Below, piece by piece: positions 1 through 23,321 of a stretch of 64,000 bases of DNA (positions within the stretch are counted from its first letter, which is position 1; each line of letters opens with the position of its first letter). The notes under the pieces were generated by a model. That model searched no databases and was not told where the DNA came from. It saw nothing but the letters and a program-made list of their open reading frames with translations. The translations under genes were made by a program, and so were the position numbers. This stretch comes from Patescibacteria group bacterium (GTDB lineage: Bacteria; Patescibacteriota; Patescibacteriia; Magasanikbacterales; JBBTQS01), in assembly GCA_038065555.1 (NCBI GenBank), contig JBBTQS010000004.1:65-64064 (forward strand), given 5' to 3'.

Positions 1-300
1 ACCCCCTACTCGTCATAGCCTTGGTGAGCCATTACCTCACCAACTAGCTGATAAGCCATAGGCCCCTCGCACACCGAAATTCTTTACATGAGAAAGTCAT
101 GCGACCCCTCATGTCCATCGTGTATTAGCGTCTCTTTCGAAACGTTATCCACGAGTGTGCGGTAGGTTACCAATGTGTTACGCACCCGTTTGCCACTAGA
201 CGTTCCCTTGATGTAATCGCAGAAACATCTCGTTCGACTTGCATGCCTCAGCCACGCCGCCATCGTTCGTCCTGAGCTAGGATCAAACTCTCAAATTTGA
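1..300 (-). rRNA. rrs: 16S ribosomal RNA, 5' portion (gene continues past the window start)
   Basis: Reverse complement of ~281-300 reads AGAGTTTGATCCTAGCTCAGGACGAACGATGGCGGCGTGGCTGAGGCATGCAAGTCGAACG, the canonical 16S 5' end. Downstream matches conserved 16S helices. Confidence 0.9.
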
Positions 301-7941: not shown

Positions 7942-8104
7942 CAGACGCACAAACACAAACGCTTCGCACAGACGAACGCCCCAAACCCTTTGGGAGCTTC
8001 GTTCGCAAGTCCTCCCCGTAAACTGAGGTCCGGGCTTACTCACGAACTCCCAAAGGGTTTGGGGCTCTCGGTTATACGACGCGTGTACGTGTGCATCGGT
8101 TGCG

Positions 8105-11989: not shown

Positions 11990-12313
11990 TTATGCTGCTG
12001 GTGCGTTCGCTGCCTTCTTTGCGATGGCAGTTGCGCGGCGCTTCGTGATGGTGATCGAGCGGACCTTCTTGCCGGTGATGAGTCCCTTGTCGATGAACAT
12101 GTTGCGAAGCGTGTCGGTTGGCTGTGCGCCTACTCCGAGCCAGTACTTCACGCGTTCCTCCTTGAGGGTGATTGCGCTCTCCTTCATGAGCGGGCTGAAA
12201 TGGCCGATGATTTCGTTGGTCGTGCCCCATGGATCGCGGCCCTGTTCCACAACAATAATCCGGTATTCCGGCTGCTTTTTCTTTCCAATGCGTGCGAGCT
12301 TGATTTTGACCAT
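11990..12313 (-). CDS. rpsP: 30S ribosomal protein S16
   Basis: MVKIKLARIGKKKQPEYRIIVVEQGRDPWGTTNEIIGHFSP matches the S16 family. Confidence 0.93.
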   Translation of the reverse strand: MVKIKLARIGKKKQPEYRIIVVEQGRDPWGTTNEIIGHFSPLMKESAITLKEERVKYWLGVGAQPTDTLRNMFIDKGLITGKKVRSITITKRRATAIAKKAANAPAA

Positions 12314-12385: not shown

Positions 12386-14650
12386 TTATTTTGCAGCGCG
12401 TGCCATAGCATCCTCGAGCCGCACCGACAGAACACGCGACACGCCGTCCTCGCCCATGGTCACTCCGTAGAGAAGCTGTGCTTGTTCCATGGTGGCGCGG
12501 TTGTGGGTGATGGCGACGAATTGGGTCTGGGTGGCGAGCTCGGCGATAATCGCACCGAATCTCACCGAGTTGCTTTCGTCGAGAGCGGCGTCTACCTCGT
12601 CGAGTACCACAAACGGCGACGGGTTGGTGGAGAGAATGGCGCAGATGAGTGCGACGCTCGTGAGTGCTTTCTCGCCGCCGGAGAGTACGGCAATGTCGGT
12701 GACACGCTTGCCTGGAGGTGAAGCGACAATGTCGATGCCGACGAGCGTCTCGGCGGTTGGATCTACTGCAGAAGCGTCTGTAGGCTCGCCCGATTCCTCA
12801 GATGCATTTGCTTGCTGCTCCTTCGGCGTCTGACGAATTTCAACAATCTCAGCACGGCCGCCGTTGAAGAGTGTCGCGAAGAATCTGCCGAACTCGCGGT
12901 TGATTTGTGCAAAAGCGACGGTACGACGCTTGGTGGTGATTGCGTCGAGCTCTACAATCCCCTTCTCGAGCTGCGCGATCGCGAGATCGAGGTCGCGAAC
13001 TTGTGCGTCGAGGAATTCGTGACGCTCGCGTGTTGTCTCGTACTCCTTCATGACTTCCGGGTCAATCGAGCCGATGAGCTCGAGCTGACGGCGCAGGCGA
13101 TACACATCCTGCTGCAATGCCTGCACGTCGACTGCGCGCGCAATCTCTGGTGGAATGGCTTCGATCTCTGCGCGATACTGGGGCACTTCGCGTGCAATCT
13201 CTTCGAGCAAGGTGTCTCGACGCGTCTCGATGCGCGCGAGATCTACTGCAATTGCACTGGCGCGCTGCTCAGTAGTGTGGAGCTGTTTTTGCTTGTCCTG
13301 TAATTCGCGCTGGAGTGCGAAGAATGCACTCTTCTTCTCCTGCTCTTCGCGACTGACCGATGCGATGCGCTCCTGGAGATGGATTGCTTTTTCTTCGATG
13401 AGTACAAGTGTCTTCTCCAGTTCGGCAATTTCTGCCTGCGCCTTGGTGTCCACAAACGCTGCGGGCTGCTGCTGTGGCGCTGGTTGCTGGAGACGTTCAA
13501 TAAGTGAAGCTACTTTGCCAAGGACACCTTTCACAAATCGCTCGAGAATGGAGAGATCGCGTTCGTTCTGCGCATGCGCCACTTCGTCGCGGATGGCTTC
13601 GAGCTCGGTGATGATTTTGGTGAGCGGCAATGGCGCCCATTTCTGTTGGCTCGTGGCGCGGACCGTTGCAACCTCGATCGCATTCTTGAGACGAATAATT
13701 TCTTCGCGCAATTTGGTGCGCTCGCGGTGCACTGCGTCGTACTCCTGTTGGAGTTGCGAGTAAATGTCGTTCTTGGTCTCATGCACTTCCATAGTGCGCA
13801 ACTGCGCAAACGCAGCATCGTACGCAGTCTGCAATGCCTTTTGCTCAATCGCAATGTGATCACGCTCTACAGACATGCGCGTGAGCTGCTCCTGGATGCG
13901 AACCCACTGACCGCCGTAATATTGGATGTACGCTGTGTGGAGCTCGCTCTCCACTTCGTCACGCTTCTCGAGACGCTTCACTTGGCGTGTGAGACTCTGG
14001 AGACGCGGCTCGATTTCGGAGAGCAGCATGCGGGACTCGTGGAGATTCTCGCGGGTGGCGTTGAGTTTGAGTACAGTCTGGTGACGTTTGATCTGGAATT
14101 CTTTGATACCAGCCGCTTCGTCGAAGAATGATTTGCGCTCTGCTGATGTCGCCATGAGCATGTGATCGATCATGCCTTGGCCAACGACGGTGTAGGACTT
14201 CTCCGCGAAGTGTGCGCGGGCGAGCAGGAGTTGGATGTCGACGAGACGCACGCGCGATCCATTGAGGAGATACTCGCCTTCGCCATCACGATACACACGA
14301 CGAGTGATCGCGATCTCGGAATAATCCATTGGATGATCATCGTCAGACTCCGCAGGTTTGATCGTGCCGTCTTCGTTGTTGAGTGTGAGCGTTACTTCCG
14401 CATACCCCATGCGCGACTTCTTGTCTGAACCACCGAAGATGACGTCTTCGGACTTTTTGCCACGAATAATTTTGAGTGACTGTTCGCCCAACACCCAACG
14501 GATTGCGTCTGCAATATTACTTTTGCCCGAACCATTTGGGCCAACAATGGCAGTCACACCCTGTCGCCCGCCGGTGGGTGGGATGAACTGGATGCGTGTT
14601 TTTGCAGCAAAAGACTTGAACCCTTGGACTTCGATGCTGGACAGATACAT
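12386..14650 (-). CDS. smc: chromosome segregation SMC-family ATPase (short, 754 aa)
   Basis: N-terminal QGFKSF...IVGPNGSGKSNIADAIRWVLGEQS, long coiled coil, C-terminal LSGGEKALTSVALI...VVLDEVDAALDE (signature and Walker B/D-loop). Confidence 0.85.
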   Translation of the reverse strand: MYLSSIEVQGFKSFAAKTRIQFIPPTGGRQGVTAIVGPNGSGKSNIADAIRWVLGEQSLKIIRGKKSEDVIFGGSDKKSRMGYAEVTLTLNNEDGTIKPAESDDDHPMDYSEIAITRRVYRDGEGEYLLNGSRVRLVDIQLLLARAHFAEKSYTVVGQGMIDHMLMATSAERKSFFDEAAGIKEFQIKRHQTVLKLNATRENLHESRMLLSEIEPRLQSLTRQVKRLEKRDEVESELHTAYIQYYGGQWVRIQEQLTRMSVERDHIAIEQKALQTAYDAAFAQLRTMEVHETKNDIYSQLQQEYDAVHRERTKLREEIIRLKNAIEVATVRATSQQKWAPLPLTKIITELEAIRDEVAHAQNERDLSILERFVKGVLGKVASLIERLQQPAPQQQPAAFVDTKAQAEIAELEKTLVLIEEKAIHLQERIASVSREEQEKKSAFFALQRELQDKQKQLHTTEQRASAIAVDLARIETRRDTLLEEIAREVPQYRAEIEAIPPEIARAVDVQALQQDVYRLRRQLELIGSIDPEVMKEYETTRERHEFLDAQVRDLDLAIAQLEKGIVELDAITTKRRTVAFAQINREFGRFFATLFNGGRAEIVEIRQTPKEQQANASEESGEPTDASAVDPTAETLVGIDIVASPPGKRVTDIAVLSGGEKALTSVALICAILSTNPSPFVVLDEVDAALDESNSVRFGAIIAELATQTQFVAITHNRATMEQAQLLYGVTMGEDGVSRVLSVRLEDAMARAAK

Positions 14651-16318: not shown

Positions 16319-16903
16319 ATGACCAACCAATACCTAGTACCAACTGTCATTGAAAAGACGCAATTTGGCGAGCGAGCGTACGACATCTATTCTCGCCTGC
16401 TCAAGGATCGCATTATCTTCCTTGGTTCAGCGATTGACGATGGCGTTGCCAATGCTGTCATCGCACAGCTCCTCTTCCTCGACTCTCAGGACAAGACACA
16501 AGACATCAAGCTGTACATCAACTCCCCCGGCGGATCTGTCACTGCGGGCATGGCAATCTACGACACGATGAAGCTCATCAAGGCTGATGTGTCCACGATC
16601 TGTATCGGTATGGCGGCAAGCATGGCAGCAACACTGCTCGCATCTGGCCAGAAGGGCAAGCGCTATGTTCTCCCCAACGCCGAGGTCATGATCCATCAGG
16701 TAATGGGCGGCACCGAAGGCCAAGCAACGGATATCCAAATCCACGCTGAGCGCATCATCCGCATGAAGAATAGTCTCAACCAAATTCTCTCTGATCTCAC
16801 CGGCCAAACACTCGAGCGCGTGAGCGCAGACACCGAGCGCGATCACTTCATGACAGCAAAAGAAGCGGTGGCGTACGGGATCGTGGATTCCATTATTGAG
16901 TAA
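16319..16903 (+). CDS. clpP: ATP-dependent Clp protease proteolytic subunit
   Basis: [11 protein letters not shown]..., [19 protein letters not shown], catalytic Ser/His/Asp context. Confidence 0.93.
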
Positions 16904-16933
16904 TTTCGCTCAGTAACTCGCACGTGTTCCAAT

Positions 16934-17108
16934 AGTACAACAAAGATACCTATTCATCTTTCTGAGAAGTACGTCGTCGCTCGCCCTCCGGGACTCGCGC
17001 GCCTCTATCTCGGAATGTCGGACAACGAGCCACGCCTACAGCGTGTCTACCCAACCAACATTCCTCCGATGGCTTCTCAGAAAGATGAATAGGTATCTTT
17101 GTTGTACT
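16934..17108. repeat. perfect 36-bp inverted repeat flanking a ~103-bp core (MITE-like or large stem-loop)
   Basis: agtacaacaaagatacctattcatctttctgagaag at 16934-16969, exact reverse complement at 17073-17108. Confidence 0.85.
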
Positions 17109-17149
17109 TCCGCGCACGCGCAAGCTATCGAGTGGTTTTACGCAGTAAT

Positions 17150-17350
17150 GGCATACCATATCCCCACACCACCCCCTCAAAAGCAGGGGTGCTAGGGTTG
17201 AGGGGGCCAACGGAGGCCAGCCGGCAGGCAGTATCCGCCTTCAGGCGATACTCATTGTCCGGCTGGCCGAGTTAGAGACCCGATTTCCCGGTGAGGGAAA
17301 TTGAGGTTGTACCCCGACGCCCTAACACCCCTGCTTATGAGTGGGGCCGT
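17150..17350. ncRNA. candidate structured non-coding RNA (GC-rich, multiple long-range complementary segments; identity unknown)
   Basis: Nested complementary pairs: ccccctcaa/ttgaggggg; gcaggggtg...cacccctgc; ggccagccgg...ccggctggcc with an internal cagtatccgcc/ggcgatactc stem. Lies in a 680-bp convergent intergenic region. No confident match to tmRNA, RNase P, SRP or 6S motifs by eye. Confidence 0.2.
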
Positions 17351-17580
17351 CGAGATATGGAAAACCTTTCAATCCAGCGCTTGACAGCTCATAGGACACG
17401 TGGTAGTCTCCTTCCTTGAACCCCCACCACGGGTTGATCTTTTGCAAATTCCTTTCGTTCTCTGCGTCCACGACAAGCATGGAGGTGTATTTTTGGGTTA
17501 TGCTGGCTCCGGCTGGTGTGCATCAATAATGTACCTTCTTGGGCGCAGAGACTGGGAGGGATTTTTTTGTTTTCCAGCGA

Positions 17581-19602
17581 TTACTGGACAGGAGTTGGGG
17601 CTGGCGCGACGGGGGTAGAGGTCGAGACTGGAGTCAATGCAGAGTATGGCTGAGAGACCGTGCCACTTGCCTGTGCTGCCTTGAGCTCATCTGGAGTCAC
17701 ACCGACGAAGCAGATACGTGGAAGCGGACGATATGTCGAAGGGAACGCACGCTGATCAACTTTGCCGTCAGGACGCTCGATGAAGTAATCGAATGTTGTC
17801 TGTGCGCCGCGATACGAAATCTGACAGTGTGTTTTGCCTGGCGCAAGATCGGTTGTCTTCACACTGCGCGTCTCACCTGGATTAATCCACTTCAACACGG
17901 TTGGCGGTGTGTAGTATGCCTTGCGTCCATCACTTGTGCCCCACAAATAATATTTGAGCGTCACGTTGGGAACATCAACTTCGGTGGTGAGCAGTAGCGA
18001 GTGCCCCGTGTCATTGATGAACTTCAAATCACGCGATGGATCGAAGATCGTTGCGTCGGTTCCTGGATTGCCGTTAGTAAGATCGTTGTAATAACTCACC
18101 ACGAGAGAATGGTTGTAGCGCTCCGAAATATTGAGCCCTGAATTCATGGCTGCACGAAATGCAGTAGAACCAATCTGGCACAATCCACCACCGACGTCTT
18201 TTTCAATTTTGTCACCCTTGATCACGTATTCTGGGACGTATCCATTTGCAAGGGTAATCGGACGAAGTGCAGCAACAAGGGAGAATTCCTCGCCTGGACC
18301 GATCAACAATCCGTGGAGCTTGTCACTGGCATTCTGAATATTCTTGATGCGATCAGGAGAGCTGTGTACGAACTTCGACACACCAACACCGAGCAAATCC
18401 TGAATACCAAGTTGGTTGGTATCTGCGGTGCGAATGGTTGGCTGTTGCTGCACCACTACTAATGTAATTGTTGTCGTTGCCTGAACATTTCCCGCTGCAA
18501 TATCACGCATGCGCTCATTGAGCACCAAATACATCGAATCACGATCGATCGTTCGACCGACCACTGCTGGCTGGAACTGCGTCACGCGCTTGGTTGTCTC
18601 ATCAATAGCGAATCGTGCGTCCTTCGGTTCCATTTCAATTCCCGTGGCGATCTGACCAATACGATCCTCGAATGCACTTCGAGAAATACCGAGCGTCACT
18701 TCACCTGCCGGGCGCTTCTGGACTTCCAGCCATCCGCGATTATCTGCTTCGGTGATGGGCCACGATTGCATCTTGCTCGTTGTTGAGGAAGACTCGCCTG
18801 AGAACGTGAGTGTTGCTACAGCACCACGTGCGACGTCTGCTGCGCGCGCAACCATTTGTGTTGCATCTGCCATTGTAATGACAGGCGACTTCTCGACACG
18901 TGGAATATCAATCTGTCGGAACTGCAACTGACTGACTTGGCGTGCAACCTCGGCGACAGCGTATTCATATGCGAACTCTTCGCCAGCTACTTCTGGAATC
19001 GCATACGCAGCACCATCGATTCCAAATGCCACCGTTGCATTACGCATAGGTGTTTCGTACGACTGTGCATTGGCATGCAGTACATCGAGCAATACTTCTG
19101 GATGCACCGTGGCGACTACAGGAACACGCACACCCTTGGTGCTGGAATTCCAGACGACTCGCAGTCTATTCCAGAATGATCCGCTGCGCCCGACCGCATA
19201 CGCGCGAGCAACTGTGGCGTCAGCATCAATATCTGCAAAAGGCACACTCGTCTCCGTTGATGCACCAAACACCATTGGCAACGAGGTGAAAGAACGCACA
19301 CTCCCCGCTCCATCACGCACTAAAAATGTAAATCCATTATTTGCGAGCGCCACGTCTTGCGCTCGAATCTGCGCTTCTACTTCTGCTCGAGTCAATCCAC
19401 CTACTGCGTACACTCCAACAGAGACGCCAGGGTACATTCGACCTTCGTAATACAATTCATACAGCGCCGGTGCCGAAGCAACAAGACCGACCAACACTAC
19501 AAATACGCCACCGAGAATAAAATACAACAACCGCCGAGGTGATCTCGGCGCGCGAGGTGTTTGTGTCTGCTGTTCTTCTCCTACGGTATTGGTGTGCTCC
19601 AC
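17581..19602 (-). CDS. VanW-family protein with N-terminal TM anchor
   Basis: GGGLCQIGSTAFRAAMNSGL is the VanW core motif. GTG start, no SD. Confidence 0.8.
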   Translation of the reverse strand: MEHTNTVGEEQQTQTPRAPRSPRRLLYFILGGVFVVLVGLVASAPALYELYYEGRMYPGVSVGVYAVGGLTRAEVEAQIRAQDVALANNGFTFLVRDGAGSVRSFTSLPMVFGASTETSVPFADIDADATVARAYAVGRSGSFWNRLRVVWNSSTKGVRVPVVATVHPEVLLDVLHANAQSYETPMRNATVAFGIDGAAYAIPEVAGEEFAYEYAVAEVARQVSQLQFRQIDIPRVEKSPVITMADATQMVARAADVARGAVATLTFSGESSSTTSKMQSWPITEADNRGWLEVQKRPAGEVTLGISRSAFEDRIGQIATGIEMEPKDARFAIDETTKRVTQFQPAVVGRTIDRDSMYLVLNERMRDIAAGNVQATTTITLVVVQQQPTIRTADTNQLGIQDLLGVGVSKFVHSSPDRIKNIQNASDKLHGLLIGPGEEFSLVAALRPITLANGYVPEYVIKGDKIEKDVGGGLCQIGSTAFRAAMNSGLNISERYNHSLVVSYYNDLTNGNPGTDATIFDPSRDLKFINDTGHSLLLTTEVDVPNVTLKYYLWGTSDGRKAYYTPPTVLKWINPGETRSVKTTDLAPGKTHCQISYRGAQTTFDYFIERPDGKVDQRAFPSTYRPLPRICFVGVTPDELKAAQASGTVSQPYSALTPVSTSTPVAPAPTPVQ

Positions 19603-23048: not shown

Positions 23049-23123
23049 GTCGCTATCGTCTAATGGTTAGGACGCTAGGTTTTCATCCTGGAAATCGGGG
23101 TTCAATTCCCCGTAGCGATACCA
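23049..23123 (+). tRNA. tRNA-Glu (anticodon TTC), CCA encoded
   Basis: Hand-folded cloverleaf: acceptor gtcgcta/tagcgat, D stem gtct/ggac, anticodon stem ctagg/cctgg, loop ttTTCat, T loop ttcaatt, 3' acca. Confidence 0.88.
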
Positions 23124-23269
23124 AGAAAGAGTACCCGTTCGAGGGTACAACGTCCCCAGCCCTCCCGGGCTGGGGCGTTTCGTTCTCGGCTTGGTAGAGA
23201 CATTCCTCTTGCTCAGACGTGCAGTCGCTACCTTCGCCTCCGAAGGCCCCTCGAACGGGTACTCTTTCT
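23124..23269. repeat. perfect 22-bp inverted repeat immediately 3' of tRNA-Glu, enclosing a terminator hairpin
   Basis: agaaagagtacccgttcgaggg at 23124-23145, reverse complement at 23248-23269. Confidence 0.85.
23154..23190 (+). terminator. rho-independent terminator after tRNA-Glu
   Basis: ccccagccc tcc cgggctgggg followed by cgtttcgttctc. Confidence 0.55.
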
Positions 23270-23321
23270 TGGTGCGTATGTGGCGTTGCCAATTCCTCTG
23301 TCTGTGTTAGGATTCTTGGGT

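What the first reader, a model, noticed from the sequence alone, without database searches (positions are those of the whole stretch)
16904..17580. 680-bp convergent intergenic region with a perfect 36-bp-arm inverted repeat and a GC-rich structured element (candidate ncRNA)
In a genome where most spacers are under 50 bp, clpP and the VanW gene converge on a 680-bp gap. It contains a 175-bp element bounded by perfect 36-bp inverted repeats (16934-16969 / 17073-17108), MITE-like though no target-site duplication is evident. About 200 bp further there is GC-rich sequence with several nested long-range complementarities (ccccctcaa/ttgaggggg; gcaggggtg/cacccctgc; a ~50-nt ggccagccgg...ccggctggcc hairpin). 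A TTGACA-17-TAGTCT promoter-like site lies at ~17381-17415. This does not look like coding sequence and could be a housekeeping RNA of divergent sequence or a novel sRNA.
Basis: seen in the sequence. Interest (0 to 1): 0.55.

Follow-up and report, generated by a model that had tools for sequence, protein, structure and literature searches.

The report
Conserved small RNA beside hairpin insertions
The 680-bp gap holds a conserved small structured RNA gene of groundwater Patescibacteria that matches no Rfam family, whereas the 36-bp inverted repeat and the GC-rich fold beside it are lineage-specific copies of an elaborated terminator-type hairpin, not a conserved RNA and not a demonstrable transposon.

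Summary

1. **E1 (16934-17108).** A 103-nt core sits between perfect 36-bp arms.
2. **E2 (17172-17346).** This is the GC-rich fold (z = -8.8). Its core resembles E1's core in reverse orientation.
3. **A small RNA gene (about 17417-17573, + strand).**

E1 and E2 are absent from every relative examined; the clpP-to-promoter spacer is 14 to 115 nt there. E2 diverges at the background rate between two strains, and some of its substitutions break stems. No second copy of the 36-bp arm was found. A third family member, E4 (23120-23273), follows tRNA-Glu, and its outer stem and first inner hairpin have counterparts in a distant relative's tRNA-Glu terminator. E1 and E2 therefore look like paralogous copies of a nested terminator hairpin, not a classical MITE or a housekeeping RNA.

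The small RNA is conserved in seven lineages, down to VanW 38% identity (Ca. Magasanikbacteria). 20 of its 48 base pairs show compensatory changes, and a 10-nt bulge (CGACAAGCAU) is invariant. It has no Rfam match and no conserved ORF. Its function is unknown; I think a protein-binding RNA is most likely.

The parts
16319..16903 (+). clpP, the upstream flanking gene
   Evidence: ORF; Pfam CLP_protease E 1e-82
16934..16969 (.). E1 left arm (perfect 36-nt inverted repeat; outer part is an A-tract, ACAACAAAG)
   Evidence: 36/36 complementary, none of 100 shuffles matched
16970..17072 (+). E1 core, 103 nt, GC-rich. It is related to the E4 core in the same orientation and to the E2 core in reverse orientation
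   Evidence: Local alignment E1 vs rc(E2) scores 27 against 15.4+-2.5 (2/300 shuffles reach it). E1 vs E4 scores 23 against 15.0+-2.2 (0/300). The core alone is not unusually stable (z = -1.5)
17073..17108 (.). E1 right arm (outer part is a T-tract, CTTTGTTGT)
17172..17346 (-). E2, the GC-rich nested hairpin. Terminal arms 17172-17192 / 17326-17346 are a perfect 21-bp repeat in strain L007. It contains a 10-bp helix GGCCAGCCGG/CCGGCTGGCC and a hairpin TTTCCC-GGTGA-GGGAAA. The core is the reverse complement of the E1-type core
   Evidence: z = -8.8; 10 differences from strain L007, some of which break stems
17381..17409 (+). Promoter of the small RNA: TTGACA, 17 nt, TGgTAGTCT (extended -10)
   Evidence: Read. 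TTGACA-N17-TGnTAnnnT is present 50-64 nt upstream of the hairpin in all six closer homologues, with a variable spacer
17417..17573 (+). Small RNA, about 157 nt. Parts: 5' hairpin 17419-17435; long hairpin 17446-17565; invariant 10-nt bulge CGACAAGCAT 17471-17480; apical C(UCCG)G loop; U-tract 17562-17573
   Evidence: With 7 sequences, 94.9% of cells pair, 20/48 pairs show changes on both sides, and 0/500 shuffles reach this
17581..19602 (-). VanW/PG_binding_4 protein, the convergent flanking gene
23120..23273 (+). E4, the third member of the hairpin family. Perfect 26-bp arms, 102-nt core, beginning at the 3' end of tRNA-Glu (23049-23123)
   Evidence: An orthologous outer stem and inner hairpin occur in L024's tRNA-Glu terminator

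Best explanation
The gap is a composite of a conserved small RNA gene and two lineage-specific hairpin elements.

**(a) The small RNA gene.** It is an independent gene on the + strand, about 17417-17573. It has a sigma-70-type promoter with an extended -10. The RNA is a short variable 5' hairpin followed by a roughly 120-nt irregular hairpin whose base doubles as an intrinsic terminator. The hairpin presents an invariant, asymmetric 10-nt bulge (CGACAAGCAU) between invariant helices. The gene has stayed in the clpP-VanW neighbourhood across a class-level group of Patescibacteria. I infer that it acts as a stable trans-acting RNA and most likely binds a protein through the invariant bulge and flanking helices. 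A base-pairing seed in the bulge is the alternative.

**(b) E1 and E2.** The 477 nt between clpP and that promoter are specific to this lineage. They hold two diverged, oppositely oriented copies (E1, E2) of a nested-hairpin module. The third copy, E4, is the elaborated terminator of tRNA-Glu 6 kb away. Each copy has an A-tract/T-tract outer stem like this genome's ordinary bidirectional terminators, wrapped around a GC-rich core of about 100 nt. Each core is 'sense' to the gene that ends upstream of it. I infer that E1 and E2 arose by duplication of such a terminator module. I also infer that they now act, at most, as terminators or insulators: E1 for clpP, E2 facing VanW read-through. E2 is already decaying.

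**Shown:** the anatomy, presence and absence among relatives, covariation in the sRNA, and the lack of any Rfam match.
**Inferred:** transcription, terminator function, the duplication origin, and protein binding.
For: **Small RNA**
- Homologues lie just downstream of clpP in L001, L010, L011, L023 and L024. One more lies in the same gap in L026 (Ca. Magasanikbacteria, VanW 38% identity).
- The region is nearly identical across relatives whose VanW is only 75% identical.
- The consensus hairpin has 48 pairs. With 6 sequences, 97.2% of cells pair and 16 pairs carry double changes (0/500 shuffles; slid controls give 2-4). With 7 sequences the figures are 94.9% and 20 pairs (0/500).
- The covariance model scores 124-137 bits on the forward strand against 18-33 bits on the reverse. 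L026 was not in the training set and scores 71.6 bits, E 6e-18.
- The many G-U pairs would be A-C mismatches on the other strand.
- TTGACA-N17-TGnTAnnnT is conserved while its spacer varies. A U-tract follows the stem.
- The 16-codon ORF is not conserved: L011 has lost the stop and carries non-conservative changes. The antisense ORF stops after 9 codons in L024 (read from the sequence).

**E1 and E2**
- Both are absent at the orthologous site. The spacer is 14 nt in L001, 115 nt in L010, 31 nt in L011, and short in L023 and L024.
- Against strain L007, overall divergence is 4%. There are 10 differences in 17165-17359, including broken pairs, and none in E1 or in the sRNA.
- Family relationship is supported (I3). 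The core lengths are 103 and 102 nt.
- Ordinary terminators here are 16-20-bp near-perfect stems with paired A/T tracts (I5, I8, I9).
- Relatives carry plain or nested perfect hairpins after tRNA-Glu. L024's 20-bp outer stem and ACGTCCTCAGCCC hairpin match E4.
Against: - There are no expression data, so the transcript ends are predictions.
- The sRNA's function is a guess. No protein partner or target was identified, and the bulge complement has no enriched sites in the window.
- E-family homology rests on three diverged copies with moderate statistics (2/300, 0/300 and 21/2000 shuffles). The shared C(UNCG)G-type hairpins could be partly convergent.
- None of the E hairpins is followed directly by a U-run. 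The U-rich tract lies inside the 3' arm, so terminator activity is not assured.
- E1 is identical between two strains that differ by 4% overall. This could mean constraint, recent spread or local recombination.
- Only about 84 kb of a genome of roughly 0.9 Mb or more could be searched. A multicopy family sharing E1's arms is therefore not excluded.
Confidence: 0.7

Rival explanations
1. E1 is a MITE: a non-autonomous DNA transposon with 36-bp (or 32-bp plus TA) terminal inverted repeats that inserted downstream of clpP.
For: The terminal repeats are long and perfect, and the element is 175 bp. It is absent from the orthologous site in relatives. The outermost AGTA...TACT could hide a palindromic TA duplication of the IS630/Tc1 type (sequence). 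Most of the genome could not be searched.
Against: No second copy of the arm was found in the window, in 20 kb of flanks, in JGI metagenomes or in IMG/VR. A peptide search for spurious ORFs over other copies also found nothing. The related copies E2 and E4 share the core but not the arms, which is the opposite of the MITE pattern. E4's outer stem and inner hairpin are orthologous to a tRNA-Glu terminator in a distant relative.
Confidence: 0.15
2. The GC-rich element E2 is itself a functional structured RNA, either a divergent housekeeping RNA or a novel sRNA or ribozyme.
For: Its predicted stability is extreme (z = -8.8). It has nested helices, and helices differ from E1's while keeping their pairing (GGCCAGCCGG/CCGGCTGGCC against GGAATGT/ACATTCC).
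Against: It is absent from all relatives at this locus and was not found elsewhere in them. Nothing in Rfam matches at E<=10 except a 13-bit skipping-rope hit. It has no promoter of its own; the promoter lies downstream of it. Between strains it shows 10 differences in about 200 nt, with no compensatory changes and with broken pairs at 17234 and 17266.
Confidence: 0.05
3. The conserved hairpin 17446-17565 is only a shared bidirectional terminator or 3'-UTR structure for clpP and VanW, not an RNA gene.
For: It lies between convergent genes and ends in a U-tract. In L001 and L011 there is no separate clpP terminator, so clpP transcripts probably end at it.
Against: Terminators do not keep 23-nt invariant blocks and an invariant 10-nt bulge across lineages whose flanking protein is only 38-42% identical. 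A dedicated promoter with conserved hexamers and a variable spacer precedes it in six lineages. In L011 it is not next to VanW. In L026 it is inverted relative to clpP and is followed by separate terminators.
Confidence: 0.1
4. The conserved unit is a small protein gene (16-codon ORF MEVYFWVMLAPAGVHQ at 17479-17529), for example a type I toxin.
For: A hydrophobic 16-codon ORF is identical in window, L001 and L010, with one synonymous change in L010.
Against: In L011 the stop codon is lost and 7 of 16 residues change non-conservatively. In L023, L024 and L026 the changes follow base-pairing, not codon positions. No Shine-Dalgarno sequence sits at a usable distance. A degenerate codon-aware scan of metagenomes found only L001-type copies.
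Confidence: 0.03

Closest known systems
Bacterial MITEs and related palindromic repeats (Correia/NEMIS, ERIC, RUP; comparison from general knowledge)
   Same: E1 is 175 bp and intergenic, has long terminal inverted repeats, folds into a long hairpin when transcribed, and shows presence/absence among relatives.
   Different: The related copies share the core but not the arms. Only three copies were seen, all within 6.3 kb. There is no clear target-site duplication. One copy (E4) has an orthologous precursor structure at the same site in a distant relative.
Bidirectional intrinsic (Rho-independent) terminators
   Same: The outer stems of E1 and E4 carry paired A-tract/T-tract ends like this genome's ordinary terminators. 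They sit directly after clpP and tRNA-Glu. The base of the sRNA hairpin plus its U-run is a textbook terminator.
   Different: The E stems are 26-36 bp long and enclose a core of about 100 nt instead of a 3-8-nt loop. No U-run follows the stem.
6S RNA (ssrS)
   Same: The sRNA is about 150-200 nt, has a long irregular hairpin with an unpaired region in the middle, is constitutive-looking, and is conserved over long distances.
   Different: The 5' and 3' ends do not form a closing stem. The internal loop is one-sided (10 nt opposite 1 nt), not a two-sided open-promoter mimic. There is no hit to the Rfam 6S models.
Small bacterial SRP RNA (4.5S, ffs)
   Same: A single long hairpin with an asymmetric internal loop whose 3' side is 1 nt, and invariant nucleotides around the loop.
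   Different: The apical loop is UNCG-type, not GNRA. The conserved loop lies 24 bp from the tip. The domain IV motifs are absent. There is no hit to the Rfam SRP models.

Membership tests
MITE | Terminal inverted repeats | tested here: met
   36/36 complementary arms
MITE | Several copies in the genome that share the same terminal repeats | tested here: not met
   No other copy in the 64-kb window, in 20 kb of flanks, in JGI metagenomes or in IMG/VR. E2 and E4 have different arms.
MITE | Target-site duplication flanking the repeats | tested here: inconclusive
   No direct repeat flanks the arms. A palindromic TA could be hidden in AGTA...TACT (sequence).
MITE | A cognate autonomous element (transposase gene bounded by the same repeats) | not testable with these tools
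   The whole genome is not available. Nothing was seen in the loci fetched.
Any Rfam 15 family (RNase P, tmRNA, SRP, 6S and the rest) | A covariance-model hit at or near the gathering score | tested here: not met
   Gathering-threshold scan of the window found only rRNA and tRNAs. At E<=10 in 16800-17700 the best hit was 16 bits. The E4 and L026 regions were also negative. ARAGORN found no tmRNA.
6S RNA | A closing stem formed by the 5' and 3' ends and a large two-sided central bubble | tested here: not met
   The consensus structure has 10 nt opposite 1 nt, and the 5' 30 nt lie outside the hairpin.
Small SRP RNA | A GNRA tetraloop with symmetric and asymmetric loops of domain IV near the tip | tested here: not met
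   The apical loop is UCCG, UACG or UCAG, and the conserved bulge is 24 bp from the tip. The motif definition is from general knowledge.
Structured bacterial sRNA gene (generic) | Own promoter, intrinsic terminator, conservation with covariation, no conserved ORF | tested here: met
   Transcription itself was not tested.
Intrinsic terminator (for E1 as the clpP terminator) | A stable stem followed directly by a U-run | tested here: inconclusive
   The stem is very stable. The U-rich tract CUUUGUUGU lies within the 3' arm, and the stem is followed by UCCGCGC. The scanner does not call it a terminator.

The most novel reading that the evidence does not exclude
The RNA of about 157 nt downstream of clpP is a previously undescribed housekeeping RNA of Patescibacteria (at least the Magasanikbacteria/Uhrbacteria-related lineages). 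It would be the RNA component of a ribonucleoprotein, or a functional analogue of 6S RNA, recognised through its invariant CGACAAGCAU bulge and flanking helices.
Probability: 0.25. Interest if true: 0.75.

Novelty: new member of a known kind. Interest (0 to 1): 0.5.

Why it matters
To my knowledge, few non-coding RNAs beyond rRNA, tRNA and the universal housekeeping RNAs have been described in Patescibacteria (CPR). This candidate is a strongly covarying RNA with its own promoter. It has kept its place in a stable gene neighbourhood across lineages whose flanking protein is only 38% identical, and it matches nothing in Rfam 15. A seed alignment and a covariance model already exist, and groundwater metatranscriptomes could test it directly.

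The hairpin elements matter in a smaller way. They show terminator-type hairpins being elaborated and apparently copied while each copy keeps perfectly complementary arms. This bears on how palindromes are created and maintained, for example by template switching. It also explains why k=31 assemblies break at this locus.

Tried and rejected
1. **Rfam.** Scans of the window, the gap, E4 and the L026 gap found no family. The skipping-rope hit (13 bits) is noise.
2. **tmRNA/tRNA.** ARAGORN found nothing in the gap.
3. **Other copies of the 36-bp arm.** None in the window, JGI metagenomes or IMG/VR. A core-motif scan of IMG/VR also found none.
4. **blastn of the 477-nt insertion against plasmids.** No match.
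5. **Six-frame trick.** The open frame across E1 was searched as a peptide in the 5.8-billion-protein set, hoping for spurious ORFs over other copies. Nothing was found.
6. **Extra 20 kb flanking the window (L019, L021).** No further E copies or sRNA paralogues.
7. **Codon-degenerate metagenome scan for the 16-codon ORF.** It returned only L001-type copies and two chance hits in a collagen-like gene. The small-peptide reading was rejected.
8. **Target search for the bulge complement.** No enrichment in the window and no site in the adjacent rRNA region.
9. **Diversity-generating retroelement reading of E2.** Rejected, because the strain differences are not adenine-specific.
10. **Retron reading of the arm-flanked cores.** Not pursued. 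No reverse-transcriptase domain appears among the Pfam-annotated neighbours. The window itself was not scanned for one.
11. **Strain comparison of E4.** All four contigs recovered were identical to the window.

Full report
**Observation.** The window comes from a groundwater Patescibacteria genome. Contigs carrying identical genes come from Hainich well H41 assemblies, the longest at 881 kb. The nearest named homologues of the flanking protein are Ca. Magasanikbacteria and Ca. Uhrbacteria. clpP (16319-16903, +) and a VanW/PG_binding_4 gene (17581-19602, -) converge on a 677-nt gap. The 36-nt arms 16934-16969 / 17073-17108 are perfectly complementary with 103 nt between them. No shuffle of the window produced a match. 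The segment 17146-17370 folds far better than shuffles (z = -8.8). The promoter-like site is TTGACA 17381-17386, 17 nt, then TAGTCT 17404-17409 with TG two bases upstream. Rfam 15 recognises nothing in the gap, and ARAGORN finds no tmRNA.

**Comparison with relatives splits the gap in two.**
- A relative with 75% identical VanW (L001, and the identical L009, L014, L017, L018) has the same gene order but a gap of only about 216 nt.
- That gap contains only the counterpart of window 17381-17578. Its promoter starts 14 nt after the clpP stop codon.
- A second 75% relative (L010) has an unrelated 115-nt spacer with an ordinary terminator, followed by the same unit.
- Window 16904-17380, which holds the 36-bp-arm element and the GC-rich element, is therefore lineage-specific.
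- The last 200 nt are more conserved than the neighbouring protein genes.

**The conserved unit is a small RNA gene.**
- *Homologues.* They were found in L011 (VanW 53%; directly after clpP but no longer next to VanW), L023 (50%), L024 (42%) and L026 (38%, Ca. Magasanikbacteria).
- *Promoter.* In the six closer lineages, TTGACA-N17-TGnTAnnnT lies 50-64 nt upstream of the hairpin. The hexamers are conserved and the spacers vary.
- *Structure.* The RNA has a variable 5' hairpin and then a hairpin of about 120 nt whose base is followed by a U-run.
- *Covariation.* RNAalifold predicts 48 pairs. With six sequences, 97.2% of cells pair and 16 pairs change on both sides. None of 500 shuffles reaches this, and slid controls give 2-4. 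With L026 added from a covariance-model alignment, the figures are 94.9% and 20 pairs, 0/500.
- *Strand.* The model scores 124-137 bits on the forward strand and 18-33 on the reverse. L026 was not used to build the model and scores 71.6 bits. The many G-U pairs identify the + strand as the RNA strand.
- *Invariant blocks.* CUGCGUCCA-CGACAAGCAU-GGAG and UCUUCUUGGRCGCAG are invariant among the six closer sequences and nearly so in L026. The 10-nt CGACAAGCAU forms an asymmetric bulge opposite a single nucleotide.
- *Not coding.* The 16-codon ORF in the upper stem is not conserved, and neither is the antisense ORF that starts in the bulge complement.
- *L026 variant.* In L026 the module lies about 350 nt downstream of a strong promoter, inside a 920-nt non-coding gap, and is followed by separate terminators. 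The RNA is therefore probably longer there.
- *Function.* It is unknown. Invariant helices around an invariant bulge, kept over this evolutionary distance, suggest a protein-binding RNA rather than a fast-evolving base-pairing sRNA. This is inference. The defining features of 6S RNA and SRP RNA are not met.

**The 36-bp-arm element (E1) and the GC-rich element (E2) are related to each other and to a third element (E4).**
- *E1 and E2.* The interior of E1 resembles the reverse complement of the interior of E2. Evidence: the repeat finder I3; nhmmer E 0.001-0.01; local alignment score 27 against 15.4+-2.5, reached by 2/300 shuffles, with the same-orientation control at background.
- *E4.* A window-wide search for inverted repeats found E4 at 23120-23273. 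It has perfect 26-bp arms and a 102-nt core, and it starts at the 3' end of tRNA-Glu.
- *E1 and E4.* Their cores align at the same offsets (score 23 against 15.0+-2.2, 0/300 shuffles). Their outer arms share CAACAAAGA-TACC / CAAGAAAGAGTACC (21/2000 shuffles).
- *Shared features of all three*: GGTAC at the left core boundary; a CCCTC(n)CGGG hairpin tip; TCTnnCTCGG; CCTCCGnnGGCyyC at the right boundary; and inner arm ends of the form GAGRRG/CYYCTC.
- *What differs.* Helices differ in sequence but keep their pairing, and the arms differ between copies. This is the reverse of what MITE copies show.
- *Orientation.* Each core is sense to the gene that ends upstream: clpP, tRNA-Glu, and VanW for E2.
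- *Copy number.* No other copy was found in the window, in 20 kb of flanks, or in relatives.

**Origin of the E family.**
- Ordinary terminators in this genome are 16-20-bp near-perfect stems with paired A and T tracts. The outer stems of E1 and E4 have the same design.
- After tRNA-Glu, relatives carry perfect long hairpins of different sequence.
- In L024 (VanW 42%) the tRNA-Glu terminator is a 20-bp perfect outer stem, CAGAAAACAAAAGAGTGCTT, enclosing a 41-nt loop. That loop holds a hairpin, ACGTCCTCAGCCC...GGCT, which matches E4's first inner hairpin (2/300 shuffles).
- E4 is therefore an old, progressively elaborated terminator rather than a recent insertion. E1 and E2 are best read as paralogous copies that landed between clpP and the sRNA promoter.
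- The reverse complement of L010's spacer weakly resembles the 5' part of E1's core (13/300 shuffles). Some form of the element may thus predate the window/L010 split.
- How the arms stay perfect while copies diverge by about 30% is unexplained. Hairpin-templated correction or template switching is a plausible mechanism known from the literature, but it was not tested here.

**Constraint on E1 and E2.** A strain with 99% identical VanW (L007) differs from the window by 4% over 8 kb.
- E2 (17165-17359) has 10 differences. Two break inner stems in L007 (17234, 17266). Two make L007's 21-bp terminal repeat perfect where the window's is not (17337, 17342). None is compensatory. This is neutral decay, not an RNA under structural selection.
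- E1 and its flanks (16862-17164) and the sRNA (17360-17610) have no differences. Divergence is patchy along the 8 kb, so this is only suggestive.

**MITE test.** The arm sequence has no other copy in anything that could be searched. No clear target-site duplication exists, although a palindromic TA could be hidden in AGTA...TACT. The JGI collection probably does not hold this ENA-derived genome, and about 800 kb of the genome was inaccessible, so the test is incomplete. Three Logan (k=31) contigs end exactly 502 nt beyond VanW, inside the right arm. A 36-bp perfect inverted repeat explains this by itself, and it is not evidence of multiple copies.

**Verdict.**
- The gap does contain a conserved structured RNA with no Rfam match, but it is the unit downstream of the promoter.
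- The two conspicuous folded elements are lineage-specific, paralogous, terminator-derived hairpin modules. One of them is decaying.
- I rate the sRNA as a new member of a known kind (bacterial structured sRNA genes) and of moderate interest. Its breadth in a poorly charted phylum and its invariant bulge make it worth a seed alignment and an expression test.

Noticed in passing
window 7950-8093: Another nested palindrome sits between two minus-strand ORFs. It has 47-nt arms at 77% complementarity, including a perfect 19-bp core (GCCCCAAACCCTTTGGGAG / CTCCCAAAGGGTTTGGGGC), around a 50-nt spacer. It has no obvious similarity to the E family.
   Followed up: partly
L011 6003-6136: A 134-bp palindromic element (E3) lies directly after the sRNA in the 53% relative. 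It has arms of about 22 nt and an inner C(UUCG)G hairpin CGCTCGCCCCCTTCGGGGAC that resembles E1's CGCTCGCCCTCCGGGAC. nhmmer does not link it to the E family.
   Followed up: partly
L026 12023-12946: In Ca. Magasanikbacteria the VanW-clpP gap is 920 nt of non-coding DNA. It has a strong TTGACA-17-TATTAT promoter at 12098-12126, the sRNA module at 12479-12608, two terminators, and a second strong promoter at 12671-12699. The roughly 350 nt between the first promoter and the module may be an extra RNA domain. Rfam finds nothing there.
   Followed up: partly
window 23124-23280 compared with L001, L010, L024: The terminator after tRNA-Glu differs in sequence in every lineage, yet each time it is a perfect 17-26-bp hairpin. 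This turnover with perfect complementarity suggests a templated mechanism for creating hairpins.
   Followed up: partly
L004, L005, L006 (contig ends): Three Logan contigs end exactly 502 nt after VanW, inside the right arm of the 36-bp repeat. Contigs pass through E4, whose arms are only 26 bp. This fits a k=31 assembly artefact caused by the inverted repeat.
   Followed up: yes
window 1-298 and L021 10531-20531: The 16S rRNA gene at the window's left edge appears not to be followed by a 23S gene. The gene calls show protein genes from about 2 kb beyond it. This would be an unlinked rRNA arrangement. It was not checked with Rfam.
   Followed up: no
L001 / L009 (CAZVGV010000016.1): The public record is titled 'uncultured Gammaproteobacteria bacterium', but its gene content and synteny match this Patescibacteria lineage. 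The taxonomic label is probably wrong.
   Followed up: no
L019 1-3000 and L026 4358-7644: A PrgI / TraC-like / DUF87-TraG (type IV secretion-like) gene cluster lies just beyond the window's right end. In the Magasanikbacteria relative it sits immediately upstream of HSP20-VanW.
   Followed up: no
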